Below are positions 12,046-35,452 of a stretch of 46,934 bases of DNA, piece after piece (positions within the stretch are counted from its first letter, which is position 1; each line of letters starts with the position of its first letter). The DNA lies in IMG/VR virus record IMGVR_UViG_3300002461_000395, positions 1-46,934 of that record; one strand, given 5' to 3'. The position numbers were made by a program, and so were the translations under genes. Below the pieces are notes generated by a model that was not told the origin of the DNA, made no database searches, and saw nothing but the letters and a program-made list of their open reading frames with translations. The stretch is from a virus.

Positions 12046-12492
12046 ATGGCCAACGACGTTTCGGGCTTCGGCCTTCGTCTCCGCATCACCGCCTCGCGCA
12101 CCTTCCCGGCGGGCTTCACGGTCACCCGGTTCGCGGACGACGCGGACCCGTTCGACCTGCCGTCCATCCAGATCGCCGACAAGGCGATGGGGCTCAACGG
12201 CGACCTGGTGACCTGGTCCAAGGCGAACCCGATCAACACGACGGTCAACGTCATCCCCGGCAGCGAGGACGACCGTAATCTGGCCGTGCTGCTCGAGGCG
12301 AACCGCGTGGGCCGCGGCAAGTCCGGCGCCCGCGACCAGATTACGATGACGGGCACGTACCCGGACGGCCGCAGCATCACCCTGTCGGCCGGCGTCATCA
12401 CGGACGGCATGCCGGGCAACAGTGTCGCCAGTGCCGGCCGCCTCAAGTCCAAGGCGTATCAGTTCGCCTTCGAGGGCCTGTCGCGCGCCTGA
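12046..12492 (+). CDS. Tail tube protein (DUF3277-like)
   Basis: 148 aa ([37 protein letters not shown]...), located between the sheath and chaperone genes. Confidence 0.75.
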
Positions 12493-12554
12493 CGGCTGGA
12501 CGCTCGCGCCGCTCGGCGTTACGGTGCGGTCAAACCCTGTAGGAACCGCACCCC

Positions 12555-12995
12555 ATGCTCTATCCCAAGGACCTCGAACTCAAGACCGCGGCGGGCGTTA
12601 CAAAGACCTTCGTGCTGACGAAGTTCCCCGCCACGGTCGGCCGCGAGATCGTCGCTAAATACCCCACGGCCAACCTGCCCAAGCTGGGCGACTACGGCGT
12701 GAGCGAGGCCACGATGCTGCGGCTCATGGCGCACGTCGGCGTGCGGCTGGACGGCCGCGACGAGCCGCAGATGCTCAACACCCGCGCCCTCGTGGACAAC
12801 CACGCCGAGGACTGGGAAACCCTGGCGCGCCTTGAGTGGGCCATGCTTGAGTACAATTGCAGTTTTTTCGCGAACGGGCTGAGCTCCGATACCCTCACCG
12901 GGCTCGTGGAGAAAGCCCGGCCGTGGATTTCCCAAATGTTGACGGCTTTATCGGCGCAATCGTCGCCAGCCGCCAAGCCACCCTCCGAGAACTAA
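12555..12995 (+). CDS. Tail assembly chaperone (0-frame product)
   Basis: 146 aa, located between the tube and tape-measure genes. It contains a slippery heptamer and an overlapping -1 frame ORF. Confidence 0.7.
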   Translation: MLYPKDLELKTAAGVTKTFVLTKFPATVGREIVAKYPTANLPKLGDYGVSEATMLRLMAHVGVRLDGRDEPQMLNTRALVDNHAEDWETLARLEWAMLEYNCSFFANGLSSDTLTGLVEKARPWISQMLTALSAQSSPAAKPPSEN

Positions 12996-13096
12996 GCACG
13001 GTCTATACACTCGAGGATGCGTTCGACCTGTTTGAGATCGTCATCACTACCAACGTCAACGAGTACCTGGCCCAAGAGCACGCGAACCGCAAATAA
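12857..13096 (+). CDS. -1 frame extension of the tail assembly chaperone (frameshift product, 12555..12869 joined to 12869..13096)
   Basis: The ORF in the -1 frame is open from the slippery site onward. It ends with a TAA that overlaps the tape-measure ATG (TAATG at 13094..13098). Confidence 0.55.
   Translation: MQFFRERAELRYPHRARGESPAVDFPNVDGFIGAIVASRQATLRELSTVYTLEDAFDLFEIVITTNVNEYLAQEHANRK
12863..12869 (+). promoter_or_regulatory. Candidate -1 programmed frameshift heptamer T_TTT_TTC
   Basis: The 0-frame codons are AGT TTT TTC (S F F). This gives the X_XXY_YYZ pattern exactly where the -1 ORF becomes open. Confidence 0.5.
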
Positions 13097-14868
13097 TGGG
13101 CATCCTCGACACCTTCTATATCCTGTTCGACACCGACGCCAAAAAGGCCGAGCGGGAAATGGCGGACGTGCGTCGGGAAGGCGAGCGCACCGCCGACGCG
13201 ATCAACGACAGCGTCAAGGGCGCCCGGCACCTCGCTCCGGCCATCGACAAGGCGGCCGACAACGCGGGACGGCTGGGGCGGTCCTTCCGGGGCGTCGCGG
13301 GGCTGGTCACGGGGGTGCTGGCGGGCCTGGCGACGGCGAACCTTGCCGGCGGCCTGCTCAATGCGTCCGAGGGCTACAGCCGGTTCGGCAACTCTCTGCG
13401 CGTCGCGGGGCTTGAGGGCGAGCAACTGCTGGCCGTCGAGAACGCCCTGTACGCCTCGTCGCGCCGCAACGGTGTCGAGCTGGAAAGCCTCGGCACCTTG
13501 TACAGCCGCGTCTCGTCCGCCGCCGCCGAACTCGGTGTGAGCGAGGCCCAGGTGCTGCAGGTCACCGACGCGGTCTCGGCCGCCATCCGCGTGCAGGGCG
13601 GCGACGCCTCGCAGGCGCAAGGGGCCATGCTGCAGCTCGGTCAGGCGCTCGGCGCGGGCACGGTCCGGGCCGAAGAGTTCAACTCGATCACCGAGGGCAT
13701 GCTGCCGCTGCTGCAGGCCGCCGCCTTCGCCTCCGACAAATACAGGGGCAGCGTCGCCCGCCTCCGTGCGGACGTGCTGGCCGGCAACGTCACGTCGCGC
13801 CAGTTCTTCGACATGATCCGCGCCGGCACCGACTACCTCAACGACAAGGCGGCCAAGGCGCCGCTCACCGTTGCGCAGTCCATGGTCGCGCTGCGCAACG
13901 CCGTCACCGTGACCGTCGGGCGGCTGGACAAGGTGTGGGGGGTCACGCGCACGATCGGCGCGGCGCTCGGGTGGGTGGCGGAAAACCTCGACACTGCCGC
14001 TGTGGGCTTCGCGGTTTTCGCGGGCGTCATCACCGCCGTGTACCTGCCCGCCATGACCGCTGCGGCCGTCGCTACACTCGCCGCGACCTGGCCGATCCTG
14101 GCCATCATCGCCGCCGCTGCCGCGCTCGGCGTGGCCTTCGCGCTGGCGTACGACGACGTTAAGGCGTTCATGTCCGGTCAGGACAGCCTGATCGGCAATC
14201 TCATGGAGCGTTACGGCTGGTTCCGGGCGACCATTGAGGGTCTCGGCGTGGCTTTCCGCGTCGTGGCGCGCATTGTGCTCTCGGTCGCAGCGGCCGGCGT
14301 GCGCGCCGCGCAGATCCTCGTCTCGGCCTTCCGGGGCTTCTATGCCGTCGCCGCGCCAATCTTTTCGCTCTTCCGCGACGTGGTCGTGGCGGTATGGTCG
14401 GCTATCAGCAGCGCCGTCATGGACCGGATCCGCCCGTGGCTTCCGCTGATCCGCTTCGTGTTCGACGCCATGACCGCGGGCATCCAGGTCGTCGGCTCCG
14501 TTTTCGGCGCGGTCTTCCAAGCTATCGGCGCATGGTGGGATCGCGTGTTCGGCAACATCGTGCGGGGTATCAACGTCGCGGTCAACGCCGCGCGAGGCCT
14601 GCTCGGCATGTCGGTGAGCGACAGCGCCCGGGCGGCGGCGTCCGGCGTCGGTGTTGGCCAGCGCCAACTCGCAGGCGCGGCGGCCTCGCCGTTCGCCACG
14701 CGTCCAGGGTCGGTCAGCAACAACGCCAGCAGCGTGCGCAATACGACGGTCAACATGGGCGGCGTCAACGTCAACGCGTCCGGGCAGGACCCCGACGCCG
14801 TGAGCCGTGCGCTGGGCTCGACGTTCGGCGCGGCGGCCTTCCAGTTCGACGACGGAGTGGCGCGCTAA
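13096..14868 (+). CDS. Tail tape measure protein
   Basis: 590 aa. The segment AQGAMLQLGQALGAGTVRAEEFNSITEGMLPLLQAAA matches the conserved tape-measure N-terminal domain. There is a long hydrophobic/helical central region, and the position after the chaperone fits. Confidence 0.85.
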   Translation: MGILDTFYILFDTDAKKAEREMADVRREGERTADAINDSVKGARHLAPAIDKAADNAGRLGRSFRGVAGLVTGVLAGLATANLAGGLLNASEGYSRFGNSLRVAGLEGEQLLAVENALYASSRRNGVELESLGTLYSRVSSAAAELGVSEAQVLQVTDAVSAAIRVQGGDASQAQGAMLQLGQALGAGTVRAEEFNSITEGMLPLLQAAAFASDKYRGSVARLRADVLAGNVTSRQFFDMIRAGTDYLNDKAAKAPLTVAQSMVALRNAVTVTVGRLDKVWGVTRTIGAALGWVAENLDTAAVGFAVFAGVITAVYLPAMTAAAVATLAATWPILAIIAAAAALGVAFALAYDDVKAFMSGQDSLIGNLMERYGWFRATIEGLGVAFRVVARIVLSVAAAGVRAAQILVSAFRGFYAVAAPIFSLFRDVVVAVWSAISSAVMDRIRPWLPLIRFVFDAMTAGIQVVGSVFGAVFQAIGAWWDRVFGNIVRGINVAVNAARGLLGMSVSDSARAAASGVGVGQRQLAGAAASPFATRPGSVSNNASSVRNTTVNMGGVNVNASGQDPDAVSRALGSTFGAAAFQFDDGVAR

Positions 14869-29725: not shown

Positions 29726-31464
29726 TCCTTCGGCCCTATCAGCAGCAACTTGACTACGACGTGGACCAGGCGTGGCAGCACGGCGCGCGCAACGTGCTCA
29801 TGCGCCTGCCGACCGGCGGCGGCAAGACGGTGCTGCTGGCCACCATGGTGCGCCGCCATCAGGGCGCGTCGTGTGTCATCGCGCACCGCGACAACCTGCT
29901 GCTGCAACTCTCGCTCGCACTGGCCGCCGCGGGCATCCGGCACAACATCATCGCCTCGGCCGTGACGCGGCGGCAGATCATCGCCGCGCATATCCTCAAG
30001 ACCGGCCAGACGTGGTTCGACCCGGGCGCGCGGTGCGCCGTCGCGTCGGTCCGCACGCTCAACTCCGTGAAGGGCCTCGACCACTGGTTCGCGCAGGTCA
30101 CGCTCTGGGTCGTGGACGAAGGGCACCACCTCGTCGTGGACAACGAGTGGCACACCGCCATCTCCAAATTCACGCATCCCGCCTGCCGCGGCCTGCTGCC
30201 GACGGCGACGCCAGCTCGGGCGGACGGCCAGGGCCTCGGGCGCCACGCCGACGGCGTCGCGGATATTATGGTCGAGGGCCCGTCGGAGCGGTGGTTGATC
30301 GACGAGGGGTATCTGACCGACTACCGCATCGTCATGGCCGAAAGCCACCTCACGCGCCTGCTGGAAGCCGAGAAGGTCGGCAAGTCCGGCGACTACTCCC
30401 CGGCGACGCTCAAGCGCACTGCCCACGAGGCGGGCGACAGGTTCATCGGCGACGTGGTCGAGACCTATCTCAAATGGGCGGCCGGCAAGCTGTGGATCAC
30501 GTTCTGCCCGGACGTTGACACCGCGGTGGTCACGGCGACGCGGTACAACGAGGCGGGCGTGCGGGCCGAGGTACTGACGGGGGACACCGAGTACGGCTAT
30601 CGCTTCAACATCCTGCAACGGTTCGAGCGGCGCGAGATCCTGCAACTCGTCGTCGTGGACATTGTGTCGGAAGGCTTCGACCTCCCCGCCATCGAGGGCG
30701 CATCGTCGGCGCGCAAAACGGAAAGCCTGCCGCTATTCCGCCAGCAGTTCGGCCGCACGCTCCGTCCGCTCTGGGCTCCGGGGTTCGACCTCGACACGCG
30801 TCGGGGCCGACTGGACGCCATCGCCGCGAGCTGCAAGCCCCGGGCCATCTGGATCGACCACGTCAACAACGTCGGCAACCCCGCGATCGGCCTGCCCGAC
30901 CGGCCTATGATCTGGACGCTGGACCGCCGAGGGTCACGCAAGGGCGGCGGGGGCGACGGCATCCCGCTCCGGGCGTGCATCGGCCGCCCGCCCGAGGCCC
31001 CCGGCTGTATGCAGCCCTATGAACGGTTCCGCATCCTGTGCCCGTACTGCGGCACGCCGGCCCCGCCGCCCGCGTCGCGCTCGTCGCCCGAGGCCGTGCA
31101 GGGCGACCTCGTCGAGTTGGACGCCGAGACGCTTGCCAGGTTGCGCGGCGCGGTCGAGGCGCGCGACGTGCCGCTCGAGGAGTACCGGGTCCACGCCCTG
31201 CAGACGCAGCCCGCCGTTGCCGTCATGGCCAACGTGAAGCGCCACGCCGCCGCGCAGGACGCACAGGCCGCGCTCCGGGCCGCCATGACGGCGTGGTGCG
31301 GCGCCCGCATCGCCGAGGGCCTGCGCGACCGCGAGGTGCACCGGCTATGGTGGGAAACTTTCGGGGTTGACGTTCTTACCGCAAGAGCCCTAGGTCGTCA
31401 GGAAGCAGACAGCCTGACCGAGAAGGTACGTGACGCCCAAAACGACAAAAATATACGGGCTTAG
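29722..31464 (+). CDS. SF2 DEAD/DEAH-box DNA helicase
   Basis: GTG at 29722 (GTGA overlap). It has Walker A (LPTGGGKT), motif II (VVDEGHH) and a C-terminal Zn ribbon (CPYCG). The last ~28 aa are lower in GC. Confidence 0.85.
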   Translation: MILRPYQQQLDYDVDQAWQHGARNVLMRLPTGGGKTVLLATMVRRHQGASCVIAHRDNLLLQLSLALAAAGIRHNIIASAVTRRQIIAAHILKTGQTWFDPGARCAVASVRTLNSVKGLDHWFAQVTLWVVDEGHHLVVDNEWHTAISKFTHPACRGLLPTATPARADGQGLGRHADGVADIMVEGPSERWLIDEGYLTDYRIVMAESHLTRLLEAEKVGKSGDYSPATLKRTAHEAGDRFIGDVVETYLKWAAGKLWITFCPDVDTAVVTATRYNEAGVRAEVLTGDTEYGYRFNILQRFERREILQLVVVDIVSEGFDLPAIEGASSARKTESLPLFRQQFGRTLRPLWAPGFDLDTRRGRLDAIAASCKPRAIWIDHVNNVGNPAIGLPDRPMIWTLDRRGSRKGGGGDGIPLRACIGRPPEAPGCMQPYERFRILCPYCGTPAPPPASRSSPEAVQGDLVELDAETLARLRGAVEARDVPLEEYRVHALQTQPAVAVMANVKRHAAAQDAQAALRAAMTAWCGARIAEGLRDREVHRLWWETFGVDVLTARALGRQEADSLTEKVRDAQNDKNIRA

Positions 31465-32134
31465 ACGTCCCGGAGAGGACGTTCGCTACGTGGGGAAAAC
31501 TCTAAACTTGATAGGCGACCGCTTGCGAAGTCACCGTAACAGCAAGCAATCTTCGCTCCCGGTGCACCGGTGGTTGAGAAAACACGGAGACGTTGAGGTT
31601 GTTTTGCTAGAAGAGGTCGCTTCCGGTGGAGATTGGAGCGCCCGTGAACGGTATTGGATCCAGGAGTGCGTTAAATCTGGTTGCTGCCTGAACATCGCCA
31701 AAGGCGGGGAAGGCGCGCACTTCGTCACTCGGACGCCAGAACACCTCGCAAAAATCGCAAAGGCGCTAGAGAAATACAAAACGGGGTGGGACGCACCGTG
31801 TCAGACGTGCGGGAGAACAGTAAGAGTAACGCCCAAAAACGGTAAAAAATACTGCTCTTTAAAATGCCACGGGGTTGCTTCTCGCGGGGTTTCCAAACCT
31901 CAAAATAGGACGCCCGAACAGCAAAAACGGGCGATAAACGCCGCCGCTGCGGCTCGGCGAGCCCGAACGCACTGTATTAAGGGCCACGAGCTTTCGGGAG
32001 CCAACCTCCGAATAAACCGTGCCGGAAGTCGTGTTTGCAAAACGTGTCAGCGGGAACATGTCCGCCGTGCCCGGGCGCTCGGGCGCGCCGAGGCCGAGAC
32101 CTTGACGGCGCGCTTGACCGGCTCGTCACAGTGA
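31430..32134 (+). CDS. GIY-YIG homing endonuclease
   Basis: It carries KIYGLRRPGEDVRYVGKT...RLRSH...ERYWI and a Zn ribbon (CQTCG...KKYCSLKC). GC is low. The GTG start overlaps the helicase 3' end. Confidence 0.75.
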   Translation: MTPKTTKIYGLRRPGEDVRYVGKTLNLIGDRLRSHRNSKQSSLPVHRWLRKHGDVEVVLLEEVASGGDWSARERYWIQECVKSGCCLNIAKGGEGAHFVTRTPEHLAKIAKALEKYKTGWDAPCQTCGRTVRVTPKNGKKYCSLKCHGVASRGVSKPQNRTPEQQKRAINAAAAARRARTHCIKGHELSGANLRINRAGSRVCKTCQREHVRRARALGRAEAETLTARLTGSSQ

Positions 32135-32159
32135 GGCATGAGGGGGTATGACGAACGCC

Positions 32160-32714
32160 TCACGAAAGACCCAGATCAATAGGTGCGTACCGCATTCGGT
32201 CGAGCAGGCGGTGGCACGTGGGGCACAGCACCCAAACCTTTTCCGGCCATCGACAGTTTTCGACGCTGCGCCGCGCACCGAACCGTGCGTGCTCCGGACG
32301 GTGCGCGATCTCCACGACGCGCGCCTCTCCGCAAGACTGACACGCGCGCGGCGCATCGGGGTTATTGCGGTAAAATCTGACGTTCTGGCTGTCCGGCAGC
32401 GCCTTTTCGCGAGAGCGCGCACGGTTCGCCGCTTCCGCCAGAGGGCGACGCGCGTGGTGTTCACGAACGGATTTATTGTTCTGCAGTCGCTGACAGGCCG
32501 GCGAGCACAGCCACTTGTTTCTCTGGTGCGGCCCGATAGGGAACTGTGCGCCGCAATACCGACAGTCGTGATGGGTTACGGGGGTCGGGGAGGCGTGCTC
32601 TTTGAACCAACGCGCTTTGCACCGCGTCGAGCAGTACTTGCGGGCCAGGTGCGATCCGACCATTTCGGCGCCGCAAACGACGCAAGGGTGTTGAGTGCTC
32701 ATGCGTCGAGACAT
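32160..32714 (-). CDS. HNH homing endonuclease with N-terminal Zn ribbons
   Basis: It carries CVVCG...RKYCSTRC, CRYCG...CSPAC and the C-terminal CQSCG...EIAH...LCPTCHRLLD. GC is low, and it is oriented opposite to the surrounding operon. Confidence 0.8.
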   Translation of the reverse strand: MSRRMSTQHPCVVCGAEMVGSHLARKYCSTRCKARWFKEHASPTPVTHHDCRYCGAQFPIGPHQRNKWLCSPACQRLQNNKSVREHHARRPLAEAANRARSREKALPDSQNVRFYRNNPDAPRACQSCGEARVVEIAHRPEHARFGARRSVENCRWPEKVWVLCPTCHRLLDRMRYAPIDLGLS

Positions 32715-32740
32715 ACCACTTTTTGCGCGAGATTTACACG

Positions 32741-34495
32741 GTGAAAAAGTGGGCCTACTATAACGAAATTGATCCTTTTGCGGCGGATTGGCTGCGCGAA
32801 CTCATTAAGGCGGGCCAGATCGCGCCGGGGATAGTAGATGACCGAAGCATCGAAGATGTGCACCCCGACGATGTGCGGGATTTCGTCCAGGTGCATTTGT
32901 TTGGGGGGATCGGCGTCTGGTCCCACGCCCTGCGACGTGCTGGGTGGTCTGACGATCGCCCAGTTTGGACAGCATCTTGCCCCTGCCAACCTTTCAGCGC
33001 GGCAGGCAAAGGCGCTGGGTTTGACGACGAGCGGCATCTCTGGCCGGCCCTCTTCCACCTCATCACGCAGTGCCGCCCTGACACAGTCTTTGGCGAACAG
33101 GTTGCAAGCAAGGACGGCCTCGGTTGGTTCGACCTTGTACACGCTGACCTGGAAGGCGCGGGCTACGCCGTCGGGGCGGTCGATACCTGCGCTGCGGGCT
33201 TCGGCGCGCCGCATATCCGACAGCGGCTCTACTGGACAGCCTTGGCCGACACCGACGACGCGCGACTGGAAGGACGGCTCGCGCAACGACAACGTGCCGG
33301 AGAACGCCCTGTTGGGTCGGGCGGTGTGGCAGGCGGGCTGGCCGACGCCGACAGCCATGGAGCCGGGGACGGACCCAGACAAGGTGTGGGCGCGCAAGCA
33401 GCGGCTGACCGAGGCGACGGGGGTGTACCGGGGGAACGACTGTGGCCTTGGGAGCAAGGTGCACTACGCGGGCTGGCCGAGCCCCACGACCCCCTCGGGC
33501 GGCCAGACCTTTCCGGACGGGACGACCACGACGGGTCAGACGCCGGACGGGCGCAAGGTGCAGGTCACGCTGGGTCTGGTAGCGGACGCGGCGGGCTGGC
33601 CGACGCCGCAGGCGCACGACACCTCGGGCCGATCGGAAACGCAGAAGGAACTGCACGGGACGAAGCACGGCTGCGCCTGTCTGGTGCTGGACGCGAAGCA
33701 GGCGGGCTGGCCGACCACCCGAGCGGCGGACGGCGAGAAGAACGTGCGGACCTGCGACGGGGCGATGCGGGAGATCGAGCGCAAGGGCTCGCCGCAGGAC
33801 TTGGCGCAGGCGGCTGCGATCACCGGCCCGGCCCGACTAACGGTCTCTGGCGAGATGCTGATTGGATCCACTGCCGGGATGGAAAGTGGCGGCCAGTTAG
33901 CGCCAGCCCACAGCCGGTGGCTTATGGGGCTACCGAGAGCTTGGGACGTGTGTGCGATGCGCGTGCAGAAGCCGTCGAGGAAGAAATAAATGCCGTCCTC
34001 GAAATACCCGGAAACGGAACGGCCCTGCGAGACCTGTGGGACCACCTTGCTTCGCAGACGGCATCCGAAGGATGGACGCTTGGAAGGGTTCCGGGACTTT
34101 GCGAGGCGCCGTTTTTGCTCGCTTTCCTGCGCCAACTCGCGGAGCAAAGGCGGGGTGTCTCGGAACGCCTATCTCTACCACGCGCGGAAACACCTCAAGA
34201 CGGCCTGCGAAGCGTGCGGACAGACGACGGAATTGCATGCGCACCACGTCAACGAGGACTGGACGGACAATCGCAAGGCCAACATTCAGACGCTGTGCGT
34301 CTTCTGTCATCAGTTCTGGCACGGGCTGCACAGGAGGCTTGGGCTCTCGACCACAAAACCTATGCCGAAACTTACTTCCCGCTTGCAAGCGGCGCGGTCA
34401 ACAGGGTCGGACGACTGCGCGGCTACGGTAACGCCATCGTCGCGCCGCAAGCCCAAGCCTTCATTGAAGCGGTGATGCACCATGACCAGAATTGA
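32741..34495 (+). CDS. DNA cytosine-5 methyltransferase, single open frame but apparently composite / recoded (see findings)
   Basis: In this frame I see [13 protein letters not shown], motif I (LFGGIGVW), motif IV ([12 protein letters not shown]), FGEQV and [11 protein letters not shown] at 32741..33241, and motif X ([21 protein letters not shown]) at 34412..34474. The centre is Arg/Gly-rich with poor GC3. The start may be GTG 32741 or TTG 32723. Confidence 0.7.
33243..33989 (+). CDS. Methyltransferase target-recognition segment in the +1 frame (WPTP repeats plus a motif IX-like segment)
   Basis: The frame of ORF 32838..33989 carries [58 protein letters not shown] and [20 protein letters not shown]. 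Third-position G+C is about 90% by hand count over 33243..33840, and much lower in the long-ORF frame. Confidence 0.6.
33990..34475 (+). CDS. HNH endonuclease nested inside the C5-methyltransferase gene
   Basis: The ATG immediately follows the TAA at 33987. It has a Zn ribbon (CETCG...RRFCSLSC) and the HNH motif [41 protein letters not shown] is lower than the flanks. The 3' tail reads into methyltransferase sequence. Confidence 0.8.
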   Translation: MPSSKYPETERPCETCGTTLLRRRHPKDGRLEGFRDFARRRFCSLSCANSRSKGGVSRNAYLYHARKHLKTACEACGQTTELHAHHVNEDWTDNRKANIQTLCVFCHQFWHGLHRRLGLSTTKPMPKLTSRLQAARSTGSDDCAATVTPSSRRKPKPSLKR

Positions 34496-34745
34496 CACCG
34501 TGACCCTCACCAACGACGGACTGCTCAAGGCGTTCGACTTCGCCCGCCGCGCGCAGGACCGCGCCGACGAGGCGTTCCTCGCCAGGTTCCCGCCGGGCGC
34601 GACGATCTCGTGGGACCGCAAGGGCGCCCAGTTCGGCCAGGTCATCAGGCACGGCGTCACGGGCCGCATCTATGTGCGCAACATTGAGACCGAGGCGGAA
34701 TACTGGGTCACGGTGGGCGACGTGCTGCGGGCGATGCGCCAATGA
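34482..34745 (+). CDS. Hypothetical protein
   Basis: 87 aa. The ATG overlaps the methyltransferase 3' end. Confidence 0.55.
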   Translation: MTRIDTVTLTNDGLLKAFDFARRAQDRADEAFLARFPPGATISWDRKGAQFGQVIRHGVTGRIYVRNIETEAEYWVTVGDVLRAMRQ

Positions 34746-35122
34746 CCGCCGCCAGCGAGGCCCGTGTGCAGTCCGAGGTCCGTCTCGAGGCGGCGCGCTA
34801 CGGCATCCACCTGTGGAGAAATAATGTCGGAGTGCTGCGCGACGCGAACGGCCGGCCGGTCCGCTACGGCCTGGCCAACGACAGCGCGCAGATCAACGCC
34901 GTGCTCAAGTCGTCCGATCTGGTCGGCTGGCGGCCGGTGGTGGTCACGGCGGACATGGTCGGTCAGACCCTCGCCGTGTTCGTCGCGAGAGAGTGCAAGG
35001 CCGAGGGCTGGACGTTCCGGGGGACGGAGCGCGAGATCGCGCAACAGCGTTGGATCGACATGGTCAACCACAACGGCGGAGACGCGGCGTTCGTCTCGGG
35101 CCTCGGGAGTTTCTCCAAATGA
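34742..35122 (+). CDS. VRR-NUC domain nuclease
   Basis: 126 aa. The pattern SDLVGW...VFVARECKAEG...QQRWIDMVNHNGGDAAFV fits the VRR-NUC PD-(D/E)XK fold. Confidence 0.75.
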   Translation: MTAASEARVQSEVRLEAARYGIHLWRNNVGVLRDANGRPVRYGLANDSAQINAVLKSSDLVGWRPVVVTADMVGQTLAVFVARECKAEGWTFRGTEREIAQQRWIDMVNHNGGDAAFVSGLGSFSK

Positions 35123-35451
35123 CTAAACGACCCATTCAAGAGTTCCGCGCCGAGGAGGCCGCCGCCAAGGCCGCCAGGATCGCCGCCGTGCTCGAAGCGG
35201 CCATAGCCGAGGCGCAGGCCGACGGCTACCAGTGGATCAGCCGCGACGCCGTGGCGGCCCGCGCCGGCCTCTCGGCGGGCAGCGTCTCCAACGCTTTCGG
35301 GGGCATGCGCGCCCTCAAACGCCGCGTCATGGTCGAGGCGTGCGCCCGACCTATCCCCAGCATTGTCGCGCAAGGGCTTGCAGACGGGTCGGATATCGCC
35401 CGAAATGCCGCCCCGTCCGTCAAGGAAGCCGCTCTGGCCACGATCCGGTAG
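35119..35451 (+). CDS. Small putative HTH DNA-binding protein (TetR-N-like)
   Basis: ATG at 35119 (ATGA overlap) gives 110 aa. The segment ISRDAVAARAGLSAGSVSNAFGGMRALKRRV looks like a TetR-type HTH. Confidence 0.45.
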   Translation: MTKRPIQEFRAEEAAAKAARIAAVLEAAIAEAQADGYQWISRDAVAARAGLSAGSVSNAFGGMRALKRRVMVEACARPIPSIVAQGLADGSDIARNAAPSVKEAALATIR

Positions 35452-35452
35452 C

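What the first reader, a model, noticed from the sequence alone, without database searches (positions are those of the whole stretch)
33840..34495. C5-methyltransferase 3' end: motif IX-like and motif X signatures lie in different frames, separated by an HNH gene
Three signatures lie in this stretch:
- [12 protein letters not shown], a motif IX-like signature, is encoded at 33911..33946 in the WPTP frame, which stops at 33989.
- The HNH ORF starts at the very next nucleotide, in that same frame.
- [21 protein letters not shown], motif X, is encoded at 34412..34474 in the other frame.

The nucleotides that encode [13 protein letters not shown] also read [13 protein letters not shown] in the long-ORF frame. 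That reading resembles the downstream [13 protein letters not shown] just before motif X. The HNH ORF tail ([15 protein letters not shown]) in turn resembles the WPTP-frame tail ([15 protein letters not shown]).

GC drops from about 33845 onward. This suggests the cassette arrived together with co-converted flanking methyltransferase sequence. Upstream of the cassette the long-ORF frame also reads [19 protein letters not shown], which I recall as typical of this methyltransferase family. If so, this stretch has recognisable methyltransferase-like signatures in two frames.
Basis: partly seen in the sequence, partly recalled or inferred. Interest (0 to 1): 0.7.

Follow-up and report, generated by a model that had tools for sequence, protein, structure and literature searches.

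The report
Hidden HNH inside two-frame phage methyltransferase
A phage DNA cytosine methyltransferase written in two overlapping reading frames has been invaded by a selfish HNH endonuclease gene. The insertion brings a spare copy of the shared 3' end, so both frames stay intact. This shows how such hidden endonucleases can be tolerated and translated.

Summary
The first coordinate is off by one base.

**The frame difference is not caused by the insertion.**
- In 65 of 65 uninterrupted homologues (N15 gene 58 and epsilon15 were also read by eye), two frames stay open together:
  - the catalytic frame (alpha: motifs I-VIII, spacer, motif X);
  - a +1 frame (beta: WPTP modules, motif IX-like end).
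- Both frames show purifying selection.
- An SD and ATG for beta are embedded in alpha.
- The known precedent is M.EcoHK31I, whose beta chain lies in another frame inside alpha.

**What the window adds is a 465-nt mobile HNH cassette (33911-34375).**
- It duplicates about 93 nt of the doubly coding 3' end.
- The upstream copy now serves beta only. The resident copy serves alpha only.
- The HNH ATG directly follows beta's stop, behind a GAGG.
- Alpha's frame stays open through all 155 extra codons (P about 0.004 in codon shuffles; 29 of 29 related alleles).
- No intron or intein signature was found.

This closely matches the 'ShiLan domain' hidden HNH described in 2025.

**Verdict:** a new variant that combines two known kinds. 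Expression and subunit assembly are inferred, not shown.

The parts
32744..34495 (+). alpha ORF (frame A, position mod 3 = 2; GTG 32744, or TTG 32723): catalytic subunit of the C5-methyltransferase. It reads through the whole HNH cassette. 583 aa.
   Evidence: ORF list. Pfam PF00145 E 2.7e-11 and phrog_363 E 6.5e-79. AF2 residues 1-170 have pLDDT 83-96, and Foldseek's top hits are M.HhaI.
32756..33241 (+). alpha catalytic core: YYNE 32756, motif I LFGGIG 32897-32914, motif IV PCQPFS 32981-32998, motif VI GEQV 33092-33103, motif VIII APHIRQR 33206-33226
   Evidence: Motif coordinates. Profile match to M.HhaI motifs IV-VIII.
33242..33841 (+). alpha spacer: the frame-A reading of the WPTP region (GGLADA...). 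No amino-acid conservation, but never a stop codon.
   Evidence: AF2 pLDDT 30-45 for residues 172-366. Amino-acid entropy 2.6-3.2 bits. 0 stops against 3.06 expected per gene in 40 homologues.
32838..33989 (+). beta ORF (frame B = alpha +1; ATGs at 32838, 32856, 32871): N-terminal module, five WPTP modules and a motif IX-like C-terminus
   Evidence: phrog_1008 E 2.5e-35 and phrog_31772 E 8.3e-30. At least 6645 database homologues and 18,844 clusters at 50% identity.
32991..33212 (+). Doubly constrained 5' overlap: beta reads LSARQAK...[10 protein letters not shown]...LRASARR over alpha motifs IV-VIII
   Evidence: Entropy at alpha third codon positions falls from 1.2-1.6 to 0.5-0.9 bits here. 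AF2 beta residues 76-123 form a helix plus hairpin with pLDDT 82-90. Beta-phased pattern.
33243..33719 (+). Five WPTP-type modules of beta: WPTP 33243, WPTP 33339, WPSP 33474, WPTP 33597, WPTT 33708. These are presumed target-recognition modules.
   Evidence: The number of modules varies between homologues. WPTP columns show B3 > B1 > B2.
33825..33989 (+). beta C-terminus [25 protein letters not shown]...[12 protein letters not shown] (motif IX-like, 33912-33947) ...KPSRKK, then TAA
   Evidence: Near-invariant columns in the 70-sequence alignment.
33842..33898 (+). alpha hairpin [19 protein letters not shown], encoded by the same DNA as beta [17 protein letters not shown]
   Evidence: strands 374-376 and 382-384. 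Both frames are constrained in homologues.
33911..34375 (+). Inserted cassette relative to the uninterrupted allele: 465 nt = 155 codons. Boundaries are good to a few nt.
   Evidence: Alignment to the L019 3' end (arithmetic in note 6). 83-98% identity to the unrelated contig L006.
33911..34003 (+). Upstream, cassette-borne, diverged copy of the doubly coding 3' segment. It keeps beta's reading; alpha's reading has decayed ([28 protein letters not shown]). It contains the HNH start.
   Evidence: In 29 alleles the codon pattern is B3 1.06 > B1, B2 0.65, and amino-acid entropy is 0.92 for beta against 1.46 for alpha.
33977..33992 (+). Translation junction: GAGG (33977-80) inside beta's last codons, beta stop TAA (33987-89), HNH ATG (33990-92)
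   Evidence: Of 29 related alleles, 3 are fused in frame. Of the 26 with a stop, the ATG follows it directly in 17 and lies within 3-6 nt in 8 more. Tails are purine-rich.
33990..34475 (+). HNH homing-endonuclease ORF (161 aa) in beta's register: zinc-finger CETC 34026, CEAC 34206, HHVN 34242, CVFC 34296. Its last ~33 codons are the decayed beta reading of the resident copy.
   Evidence: phrog_1271 E 3.4e-10. Pfam HNH 17.7 bits, below the 21.4 cut-off. Alignment A3. H3 > H1, H2.
34376..34477 (+). Resident (downstream) copy of the 3' segment. It keeps alpha's reading [33 protein letters not shown] (motif X 34412-34474); beta's reading has decayed.
   Evidence: In 29 alleles A3 1.51 >> A1 0.71, A2 0.66, and amino-acid entropy is 0.98 for alpha against 2.04 for beta. 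AF2 C-terminal helix 567-582, pLDDT about 93 over residues 571-580.

Best explanation
**What is shown in the sequence**

- The locus 32744-34495 is a phage C5-cytosine methyltransferase written in two overlapping frames.
  - Frame A (alpha) holds motifs I-VIII, a long unconserved spacer, a conserved hairpin and motif X.
  - Frame B (beta, +1) holds a short N-terminal module, five WPTP modules and a motif IX-like C-terminus.
- In uninterrupted relatives, the last ~90 nt encode beta's motif IX-like end and alpha's motif X region simultaneously.
- A 465-nt HNH homing-endonuclease cassette sits in this doubly coding, highly conserved segment. It is built so that neither frame breaks:
  1. It carries its own diverged copy of the segment. 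This copy finishes beta (stop at 33987-89).
  2. The HNH ORF follows in beta's register, with ATG right after the stop and GAGG nine nt upstream.
  3. The insert is a multiple of three and has no stop in alpha's frame. Alpha therefore reads through 155 extra codons.
  4. Alpha then reaches the resident copy, which now only has to encode motif X.

**What is inferred**

- Alpha and beta are made as separate polypeptides. Beta starts from an internal SD/ATG inside alpha.
- They assemble into the active enzyme, as in M.EcoHK31I.
- The HNH is translated by termination-reinitiation after beta.
- The HNH cuts uninvaded alleles in the conserved overlap, and the cassette is copied in with flanking sequence.
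For: **Two-frame architecture**
- In 65 of 65 non-redundant uninterrupted homologues (G+C 0.45-0.68), frame B has no stop between codon <=35 (N15: 61) and the last <=25 codons. The third frame has 8-29 stops.
- Three-frame reading of N15 gene 58, epsilon15, Erwinia phage 59, PhiXhv-28 and PHB09 shows the same layout.
- Codon shuffles on 40 genes: 0 stops observed against 1.18 per gene expected (frame B over alpha codons 61 to motif VIII), and against 3.06 per gene expected (frame A over the WPTP region).

**Double purifying selection**
- Entropy at alpha third codon positions is 1.2-1.6 bits before the overlap.
- It is 0.5-0.9 bits over motifs IV-VIII and 0.2-0.7 bits at the 3' overlap.
- It returns to 1.3-1.6 bits after beta's stop.

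**Beta has its own start**
- The Asp codon of alpha IEDV is GAT in 54 of 65 genes, against 44% elsewhere. This creates a frame-B ATG in 34 genes.
- Of those 34, 27 have an SD-like 4-mer upstream.
- The Arg codon upstream is AGG in 20 of 34, against 4 of 277 elsewhere.

**Cassette geometry:**

**Frame A open through the HNH**
- P(0 stops) is 0.004 in the window, and from 0.004 down to below 0.0002 in five other loci.
- It is open in 29 of 29 class-1 alleles. In 76 of 77 HNH loci the ORF spanning the HNH is at least 200 codons.

**Un-overlapping after duplication**
- The upstream copy evolves as beta only and the downstream copy as alpha only.
- In uninterrupted genes both frames are constrained over the same segment.

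**HNH coupled to beta**
- ATG at 0 nt from the stop in 17 of 26 alleles, within 3-6 nt in 8 more, and fused in frame in 3.
- Fusion proteins P0004 and P0056 exist in the database.

**Mobility:**

**Structure:** in the alpha model the catalytic core (residues 1-170) and C-terminal helix are mostly confident and the spacer is disordered.

**Precedents**
- M.EcoHK31I has its beta chain in another frame within alpha (PMC2836561, PMC3404938).
- The ShiLan hidden HNH (PMC11855218).
Against: - There are no expression data of any kind: no RNA, ribosome profiling or proteomics.
- The window's own beta start has only a weak SD. Its Arg codon is CGA, and there are three candidate ATGs.
- Beta has no detectable sequence or fold similarity to the target-recognition domain or motif IX of any solved methyltransferase. 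'Motif IX-like' therefore rests on pattern resemblance.
- The beta model is poor (mean pLDDT 61.9, pTM 0.29).
- The entropy analyses are not corrected for phylogeny.
- The 65 genes were picked by similarity to the window (at least 74% identity over the N-terminus).
- Whether alpha tolerates a 155-residue insert is unknown.
- The source gene caller did not call alpha at all.
Confidence: 0.7

Rival explanations
1. The cassette is a self-splicing element: a group I or II intron carrying an HNH ORF, or an intein. Splicing would restore a normal one-frame 3' end.
For: HNH genes are often intron-borne in phages. The insert begins with a diverged copy of the sequence that follows the insertion site. 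The ShiLan authors considered this feature a possible intron hallmark.
Against: - No Rfam family matches 31000-36000 even at E <= 1.
- The host frame is kept open through the insert far beyond chance. An intron does not need this.
- The HNH is out of frame with the read-through ORF.
- No Hint or intein domain is found in frame A. The residue after the insert is Phe, not Cys, Ser or Thr.
- Removing the insert would still leave motif IX-like and motif X in different frames, as in all uninterrupted homologues.
Confidence: 0.04
2. One polypeptide is made by programmed ribosomal frameshifting: alpha motifs I-VIII, a +1 shift into the WPTP/motif IX frame, then a shift back for motif X. The long co-open frames would be by-products.
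For: - The order I-VIII, target-recognition region, IX, X of canonical single-chain enzymes would be recreated.
- In class-2 HNH alleles (e.g. L139), motif X lies in the WPTP frame. There a single +1 shift would give a complete enzyme.
Against: - No conserved slip site: third-position entropy around the motif VIII/first WPTP junction is 1.0-1.6 bits.
- Frame B is open and synonymously constrained about 85 codons upstream of any useful shift point.
- An SD plus ATG for internal initiation is selected inside alpha.
- Frame A stays open through 100-300 unconserved codons, which a shifted ribosome would never read.
- M.EcoHK31I works as two polypeptides (PMC2836561).
Confidence: 0.08
3. The methyltransferase was inactivated by the selfish insert. 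Alpha's open frame through the cassette is a design feature inherited with the cassette. The downstream motif X copy is a not-yet-decayed remnant.
For: - Phage orphan methyltransferases are often dispensable (a point also made for ShiLan).
- The source annotation calls only fragments.
- In three class-2 loci the catalytic ORF has acquired early stops.
Against: - Across 29 diverged alleles the downstream copy shows the classic signature of purifying selection in alpha's frame: A3 1.51 against A1 0.71 and A2 0.66, with amino-acid entropy 0.98 for alpha against 2.04 for the other frame.
- Alpha is open from motif IX to X in 29 of 29 alleles.
- All catalytic motifs are intact in the window.
Confidence: 0.12
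4. Sequencing or assembly error or pseudogenisation: simple indels put parts of a one-frame gene into different frames.
For: The window is a metagenome contig.
Against: - The same frame relations hold in 65 uninterrupted and more than 70 invaded homologues from independent samples and cultured phages.
- An identical contig was assembled independently, and the frame-B protein P0001 is held by NCBI, JGI/IMG and ENA.
Confidence: 0.01

Closest known systems
M.EcoHK31I (and M.EaeI), a natural heterodimeric C5-methyltransferase (Lee, Kam & Shaw 1995, as described in PMC2836561 and PMC3404938)
   Same: [quoted passage not shown]
- Alpha carries motifs I-VIII and X. Beta carries motif IX.
- Beta can start at several internal Met codons.
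- Both chains are needed for activity.
   Different: - Here beta is almost as long as alpha. It begins near motif I and contains all the repeated WPTP modules.
- The corresponding part of alpha is an unconserved, predicted-disordered spacer.
- In M.EcoHK31I the target-recognition domain was assigned to alpha.
- Sequence homology to M.EcoHK31I was not tested. The need for both chains is not shown here.
'ShiLan domain', a hidden out-of-frame HNH endonuclease inside an actinophage DNA methylase gene (Arsenault, Gosselin & Gogarten 2025, PMC11855218)
   Same: - The insert adds no stop codon to the host methylase frame.
- The HNH with zinc fingers lies in another frame.
- No intron or intein signature is found.
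- The first residues of the insert resemble the residues after the insertion site.
- The distribution is disjunct, as expected for homing.
- The in-frame reading is predicted as a helical hairpin or bundle.
   Different: - The host gene here is a proteobacterial-phage two-frame methyltransferase.
- The HNH lies in the register of the second subunit, directly behind its stop and behind an SD. In some relatives it is fused to that subunit. This gives a concrete route to translation, which the ShiLan paper left open (it proposed leaderless initiation).
- The duplicated segment (~31 codons against 11) has a clear role: it separates two overlapping C-termini.
M.AquI, an alpha/beta split C5-methyltransferase (Karreman & de Waard 1990, as cited in PMC3404938)
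   Same: The enzyme is split in the variable region into a subunit with motifs I-VIII and a subunit with motifs IX-X. Class-2 invaded relatives (L139, L144, L167) have exactly this division.
   Different: In the window, motif X stays on the catalytic chain. The overlap of the two genes is nearly complete rather than short.
Free-standing or intron-borne phage HNH homing endonucleases (e.g. T4 mobE, I-HmuI; PMC2790892)
   Same: HNH nuclease with zinc fingers. It targets a highly conserved segment of a phage gene. Flanking sequence is co-converted.
   Different: It is neither intergenic nor intronic. It is nested in two overlapping protein-coding frames and constrained to keep one of them open.

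Membership tests
C5 DNA methyltransferase (Pfam PF00145) | Catalytic motifs I (FxGxG), IV (PCQ), VI (ENV-like) and VIII (QxRxR) in one chain, with a Rossmann-like fold | tested here: met
   Frame A: PF00145 43.9 bits (cut-off 22), E 2.7e-11. Motifs located. AF2 core mostly pLDDT 83-96. Foldseek M.HhaI E 1.7e-5, prob 1.00.
C5 DNA methyltransferase (Pfam PF00145) | Target-recognition domain, motif IX and motif X collinear with motifs I-VIII in the same chain | tested here: not met
   The Pfam match covers only profile positions 66-164. The motif IX-like peptide is in the +1 frame in the window and in 65 of 65 homologues.
M.EcoHK31I-type alpha/beta methyltransferase | Beta ORF lies inside the alpha gene in a different reading frame | tested here: met
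M.EcoHK31I-type alpha/beta methyltransferase | Alpha has motifs I-VIII and X; beta has motif IX | tested here: inconclusive
   The alpha part is met. Beta's [11 protein letters not shown] resembles motif IX in pattern only. No Pfam, NCBIfam, PDB-sequence or Foldseek match was found.
M.EcoHK31I-type alpha/beta methyltransferase | Beta is initiated internally and translated separately | tested here: inconclusive
   Selected SD (AGG Arg codon in 20 of 34 against 4 of 277) and ATG (GAT in 54 of 65) in homologues. The signal is weak in the window itself. No expression data.
M.EcoHK31I-type alpha/beta methyltransferase | Both polypeptides are required for methylation; sequence homology to M.EcoHK31I | not testable with these tools
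   This needs biochemistry. The M.EcoHK31I sequence could not be fetched.
Hidden out-of-frame HNH insertion (ShiLan type) | The insert in a methylase gene adds no in-frame stop; the HNH is in another frame | tested here: met
   465 nt = 155 codons. 0 stops, P = 0.004. HNH in the +1 frame.
Hidden out-of-frame HNH insertion (ShiLan type) | No self-splicing signature (intron or intein) | tested here: met
   Rfam gave 0 hits at E <= 1. No Hint domain. Splicing itself was not assayed.
Hidden out-of-frame HNH insertion (ShiLan type) | The start of the insert resembles the sequence after the insertion site | tested here: met
   About 93 nt are duplicated, shown through a third sequence.
Hidden out-of-frame HNH insertion (ShiLan type) | Disjunct, homing-like distribution | tested here: met
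   The cassette is 83-98% identical in an unrelated contig. Close relatives L014 and L019-21 lack it.
HNH endonuclease | HNH beta-beta-alpha-metal motif with flanking CxxC pairs | tested here: met
   CETC, CEAC, HHVN, N98, CVFCH. phrog_1271 E 3.4e-10. Pfam HNH scores only 17.7 bits, below its 21.4 cut-off.
Group I intron with homing endonuclease | Conserved intron core (P3-P9) detectable by a covariance model; host frame need not be open | tested here: not met
   (no hit). (frame kept open).
Programmed ribosomal frameshift gene | Conserved slippery site at the frame junction | tested here: not met
   No conserved nucleotides at the junction: third-position entropy 1.0-1.6 bits at codons 152-164.

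The most novel reading that the evidence does not exclude
- The whole N15 gp58 / epsilon15-type phage C5-methyltransferase superfamily is an obligate two-subunit enzyme. It comprises at least 18,000 clusters of beta at 50% identity.
- The enzyme is encoded by two nearly co-extensive overlapping frames.
- Beta carries all the modular, possibly multispecific, target-recognition units. A third of alpha is a mere spacer kept free of stops.
- Hidden HNH elements use the doubly constrained 3' overlap as their homing site and carry a spare copy of it.
- In one host class they even transplant motif X from the catalytic chain to the recognition chain.
- The cassette itself may be doubly coding. Its alpha-frame reading is predicted as a confident helical bundle.
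Probability: 0.5. Interest if true: 0.8.

Novelty: new variant of a known kind. Interest (0 to 1): 0.66.

Why it matters
1. **A natural experiment on overlapping genes.** Duplication by a selfish element separated two overlapping C-termini. Each copy then kept only one reading. This is unusually direct comparative evidence that both frames encode functional protein.

2. **A route to translation for hidden endonucleases.** The 2025 ShiLan paper left open how these genes are translated. Here the HNH sits in the register of a translated overlapping gene, right behind its stop and an SD, or is fused to it.

3. **Systematic mis-annotation of a very large family.** This phage and prophage family includes N15 gene 58 and the epsilon15 cytosine methylase. 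Usually only one of the two frames is called, and the frame-B protein has no Pfam family. Predictions of specificity, anti-restriction function and gene content for these phages are therefore incomplete.

4. **Relevance to tool design.** The modular WPTP chain, separate from the catalytic chain, bears on split-methyltransferase tools. M.EcoHK31I has already been used for that purpose.

Tried and rejected
- **Rfam scan** of 31000-36000 at E <= 1: nothing.
- **megablast of the locus against phages:** only short patches. The window has no close cultured relative.
- **Direct DNA alignment of the two copies:** only a 31-nt, probably spurious, match. The duplication had to be shown through a third, uninterrupted sequence. 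A first manual register was off, and the insert length was corrected from 468 to 465 nt (note 6).
- **Foldseek of the beta model against PDB:** no hit with E <= 0.001. The model is too poor.
- **Beta profile against PDB sequences:** only a designed repeat protein at E 0.31.
- **Pfam and NCBIfam on beta:** nothing.
- **Literature searches** for frameshifting or dual coding in phage methyltransferases, and for 'WPTP': nothing relevant.
- **The M.EcoHK31I paper (PMC306636) and the supplements of PMC2836561** are not held. Homology to the known two-frame enzyme is therefore untested.
- **Third-position entropy within the HNH ORF** (H3 1.14) was inspected for an extra constraint from alpha's frame. 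It is suggestive but not decisive.
- **Alignment of the read-through-frame peptides** of different cassettes shows shared positions. These cannot be separated from constraints imposed by the HNH frame.
Full report
**1. The observation**

One coordinate is off by a base: [12 protein letters not shown] is at 33912-33947.

- Frame B (position mod 3 = 0) is an ORF from 32838 to a TAA at 33987-89.
- The next triplet is the ATG of a 161-codon HNH ORF (33990-34475) in the same register.
- Frame A (mod 3 = 2) is open for 590 codons (32723-34495) and encodes [21 protein letters not shown] at 34412-74.
- G+C drops from about 0.72 to about 0.60 between 33850 and 34500.
- The window is a complete 46,934-nt contig of an activated-carbon metagenome (LNFM01). 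Its public gene calls include a 210-aa frame-B fragment and the HNH, but not frame A.

**2. The frame difference is native to the family**

Frame A begins as a C5-methyltransferase (PF00145; motifs I, IV, VI, VIII). Its middle then reads as low-complexity sequence (GGLADA...). Frame B over the same DNA reads five WPTP modules.

I translated annotated methyltransferase genes of several phages in three frames:
- Xanthomonas phage PhiXhv-28
- Bordetella phage PHB09
- Salmonella phage epsilon15
- Escherichia phage N15 (gene 58)
- Erwinia phage 59

In all five, at G+C 0.51-0.63, both frames are open to nearly the same 3' end. The third frame is full of stops. The same DNA reads ...[21 protein letters not shown]... 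in frame A and ...QLNPxHSRWLMGxPxxWxxC... in frame B. PhiXhv-28 even has both frames annotated as 'DNA methyltransferase'.

Further support:
- Among 65 non-redundant uninterrupted homologues from IMG/VR, frame B has no stop between codon <=35 (N15: 61) and the last <=25 codons of frame A. The third frame has 8-29 stops.
- Codon shuffles on 40 genes give 1.18 expected stops per gene (frame B over alpha codons 61 to motif VIII) and 3.06 per gene (frame A over the WPTP region). Zero were observed.
- PHROGs files the two readings under different 'DNA methyltransferase' families: phrog_363 against phrog_1008 and phrog_31772.
- The frame-B protein has at least 6645 homologues in the 90% clusters, none with a Pfam domain. 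It matches 18,844 clusters at 50% identity.

**3. Both frames are under selection**

Entropy at frame A's third codon positions changes along the gene:

| Region | Third-position entropy (bits) |
|---|---|
| First ~72 codons | 1.2-1.6 |
| Codons 76-156 (motifs IV-VIII) | 0.5-0.9 |
| 3' overlap | 0.2-0.7 |
| After frame B's stop | 1.3-1.6 |

Over codons 76-156, frame B reads LSARQAKE...GSTLYxLTWK...LRASxRRTS. Amino-acid conservation of frame A is no higher there than at motif I.

- In the middle, the pattern is that of frame B, and frame A has no amino-acid conservation.
- AlphaFold2 agrees for frame A. Residues 1-170 are mostly confident (10-residue block means 83-96 except for three short dips to 48-72), and Foldseek finds M.HhaI. 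Residues 172-366 have pLDDT 30-45. The C-terminal motif X helix is confident, with mean pLDDT 93 over residues 571-580.
- In the otherwise poor frame-B model, the N-terminal helix plus hairpin ([10 protein letters not shown]) reaches pLDDT 82-90.

**4. Beta has its own start**

- The Asp codon in frame A's conserved DERSIEDV is GAT in 54 of 65 genes, against 44% elsewhere. This creates a frame-B ATG in 34 genes.
- Of those 34, 27 have an SD-like 4-mer and 20 a 5-mer core 4-16 nt upstream.
- The Arg codon there is the rare AGG in 20 of 34, against 4 of 277 Arg codons elsewhere.
- No nucleotide conservation marks a slip site at the motif VIII/WPTP junction.

This favours two polypeptides, which I call alpha (frame A) and beta (frame B), over frameshifting.

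A tested precedent exists in M.EcoHK31I. [quoted passage not shown] Several internal Met starts are usable (PMC2836561, PMC3404938). I could not obtain its sequence, so homology is untested.

**5. What the HNH cassette did**

I aligned the window to the 3' end of the uninterrupted relative L019:
- 33804-34003 matches tail positions 44-240.
- 34376-34477 matches tail positions 148-249.

From this:
- The window carries an extra 465 nt (155 codons, 33911-34375).
- The first ~93 nt of the insert are a diverged second copy of the doubly coding segment.
- The upstream copy keeps beta's reading (...[25 protein letters not shown]). Alpha's reading is lost there ([21 protein letters not shown]...).
- The resident downstream copy keeps alpha's reading ([22 protein letters not shown]...). 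Beta's reading is lost there ([18 protein letters not shown]...) and now forms the tail of the HNH ORF.

In 29 non-redundant related alleles this is systematic:

| Segment | Codon-position entropy | Amino-acid entropy |
|---|---|---|
| Upstream copy | B3 1.06 > B1, B2 0.65 | beta 0.92, alpha 1.46 |
| Downstream copy | A3 1.51 >> A1 0.71, A2 0.66 | alpha 0.98, beta 2.04 |
| Same segments, uninterrupted genes | A3 0.57, B3 0.47 | 0.45-0.61 in both frames |

The duplication un-overlapped the two C-termini.

**6. Alpha's frame is kept open through the HNH gene**

- In the window, codon shuffles of the HNH ORF give 4.5 expected stops in frame A and P(0) = 0.004.
- Five other loci with HNH identity down to 28-34% give P from 0.004 to below 0.0002.
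- Of 77 loci with this HNH family, 76 have an ORF of at least 200 codons (mostly 400-830) in the -1 frame running through the HNH.
- All 29 strictly defined class-1 alleles are open from motif IX-like to motif X.
- Dozens of database proteins of 490-620 aa are such read-through alpha chains. One is annotated 'DNA cytosine methyltransferase [Pseudomonas fulva]'.
- No Rfam intron model matches and no intein domain is present.

**7. How the HNH is probably translated**

- The HNH ATG follows beta's stop directly (TAAATG). A GAGG lies nine nt upstream, inside beta's Lys/Arg-rich last codons.
- Among the 29 related alleles, 3 have beta and HNH fused in frame.
- Among the 26 with a stop, the ATG follows it directly in 17 and lies within 3-6 nt in 8 more.
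- Proteins P0004 and P0056 are such fusions.

The HNH thus rides on beta's translation, which also argues that beta is translated to its end.

**8. Mobility**

- Contig L006 is unrelated outside the gene.
- It is 67-78% identical over 32800-33100 of the gene, reaching 95% in the next 100 nt, around motif VI.
- It is 83-98% identical over 33700-34400.
- Close relatives L014 and L019-21 lack the insert.

It also fits the G+C drop.

**9. Wider context found on the way**

- In all HNH loci the WPTP frame is the catalytic frame +1.
- About 16 loci have a Dcm-like (GGFPCQDIS) host. There the insert has a different phase:
  - the WPTP/motif IX chain reads through the HNH and acquires motif X;
  - the catalytic ORF stops at the insert, or in three loci right after motif VIII.
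  - This is an M.AquI-like division, and it is expected only if the chains assemble in trans.
- Staphylococcus phage CUB-EPI_14 gp45 (G+C 0.33) is an ordinary one-frame methyltransferase with the same kind of hidden +1 HNH.
- Komagataeibacter phages phiKX1 and phiKX2 have the window's arrangement and are cultured.

**10. Comparison with the literature and verdict**

The out-of-frame HNH that leaves the methylase frame open was described in 2025 for actinophages as the 'ShiLan domain' (PMC11855218). Shared features are the absence of intron or intein features, a short repeat of the downstream sequence at the start of the insert, and a helical in-frame reading. Its translation was left unexplained.

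The two-frame alpha/beta methyltransferase has been known since 1995 from M.EcoHK31I.

The window combines the two kinds. It adds:
- the placement of the HNH in beta's register;
- the functional reading of the duplication;
- the scale of the two-frame family.

I found no paper that describes any of these three.

Everything about expression, assembly and homing is inferred from sequence. Confidence in the anatomy is high. Confidence in the two-subunit mechanism is about 0.7.

Noticed in passing
window 31430..32134 (+) and 32160..32714 (-): Two more putative homing-endonuclease genes lie immediately upstream of the methyltransferase. One is a GIY-YIG protein (Pfam E 1.1e-5). The other is a Cys-rich ORF on the minus strand with an HNH-like ...AHRPEH...LCPTCH pattern and no family hit. 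The locus is a cluster of three selfish nucleases.
   Followed up: partly
L139 1341..2958 (also L131-L153, L167): In a Dcm-like (GGFPCQDIS/FVENS) host class, the HNH insert has a different phase. The WPTP/motif IX chain reads through the HNH and ends with RVDRLKAIGNGQVP (motif X). The catalytic ORF stops at the insert, or in L144, L146 and L167 right after motif VIII. Motif X has in effect been transplanted from one subunit to the other.
   Followed up: partly
L103 423..1002: There is a second hidden nuclease inside the catalytic domain. A 579-nt (193-codon) insert lies between motif VI and motif VIII and keeps alpha's frame open. In the +1 frame it encodes an Endo VII/HNH-like ORF (CKKC...CKNC...LRVVCHAANSAMG). 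That ORF is fused in frame to beta's GSTLYRFKW.
   Followed up: partly
window 33990..34375 read in frame A (alpha residues ~401-540): The alpha-frame reading of the HNH gene is predicted as helices with pLDDT 81-91. It shares positions with the read-through peptides of distant cassettes, including a Staphylococcus phage (...VLRxLxxxxxxQ...LLxxL...). The cassette may itself encode two folded products. Alternatively, the pattern may be imposed by the HNH frame.
   Followed up: partly
L177 842..2647 (Staphylococcus phage CUB-EPI_14 gp45, ON325435.2): This is an ordinary single-frame C5-methyltransferase at G+C 0.33. It carries a hidden HNH in the +1 frame just before motif IX, and the host frame is open through it. 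It is annotated as one 601-aa methyltransferase.
   Followed up: partly
L176 (Komagataeibacter phage phiKX1, LC644975.1 about 12200-13900; also phiKX2): A cultured phage has the same alpha / beta / HNH arrangement as the window, with HNH 46% identical. The record annotates only 'hypothetical protein' fragments. It is a ready experimental system.
   Followed up: partly
P0004 (612 aa), P0056 (491 aa); L108, L109, L123: In some relatives, beta and the HNH are one ORF with no stop between them. The ORF continues into the old beta tail (...CAVTAMQSMPKRPKRSSK).
   Followed up: partly
L095 (same sequence as the window), gene calls: The public gene calls for this contig contain a 210-aa frame-B fragment, the HNH and an ORF on the opposite strand, but no alpha ORF. 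In PhiXhv-28, by contrast, both frames are annotated as methyltransferase. Annotation of this family is inconsistent.
   Followed up: yes
homologues, alpha codons 27-34 (DERSIEDV); window 32838-32873: A rare AGG Arg codon and a GAT Asp codon inside alpha build an AGGAG...ATG initiation site for beta in many homologues. The window lacks the AGG and instead has three closely spaced frame-B ATGs (32838, 32856, 32871).
   Followed up: yes
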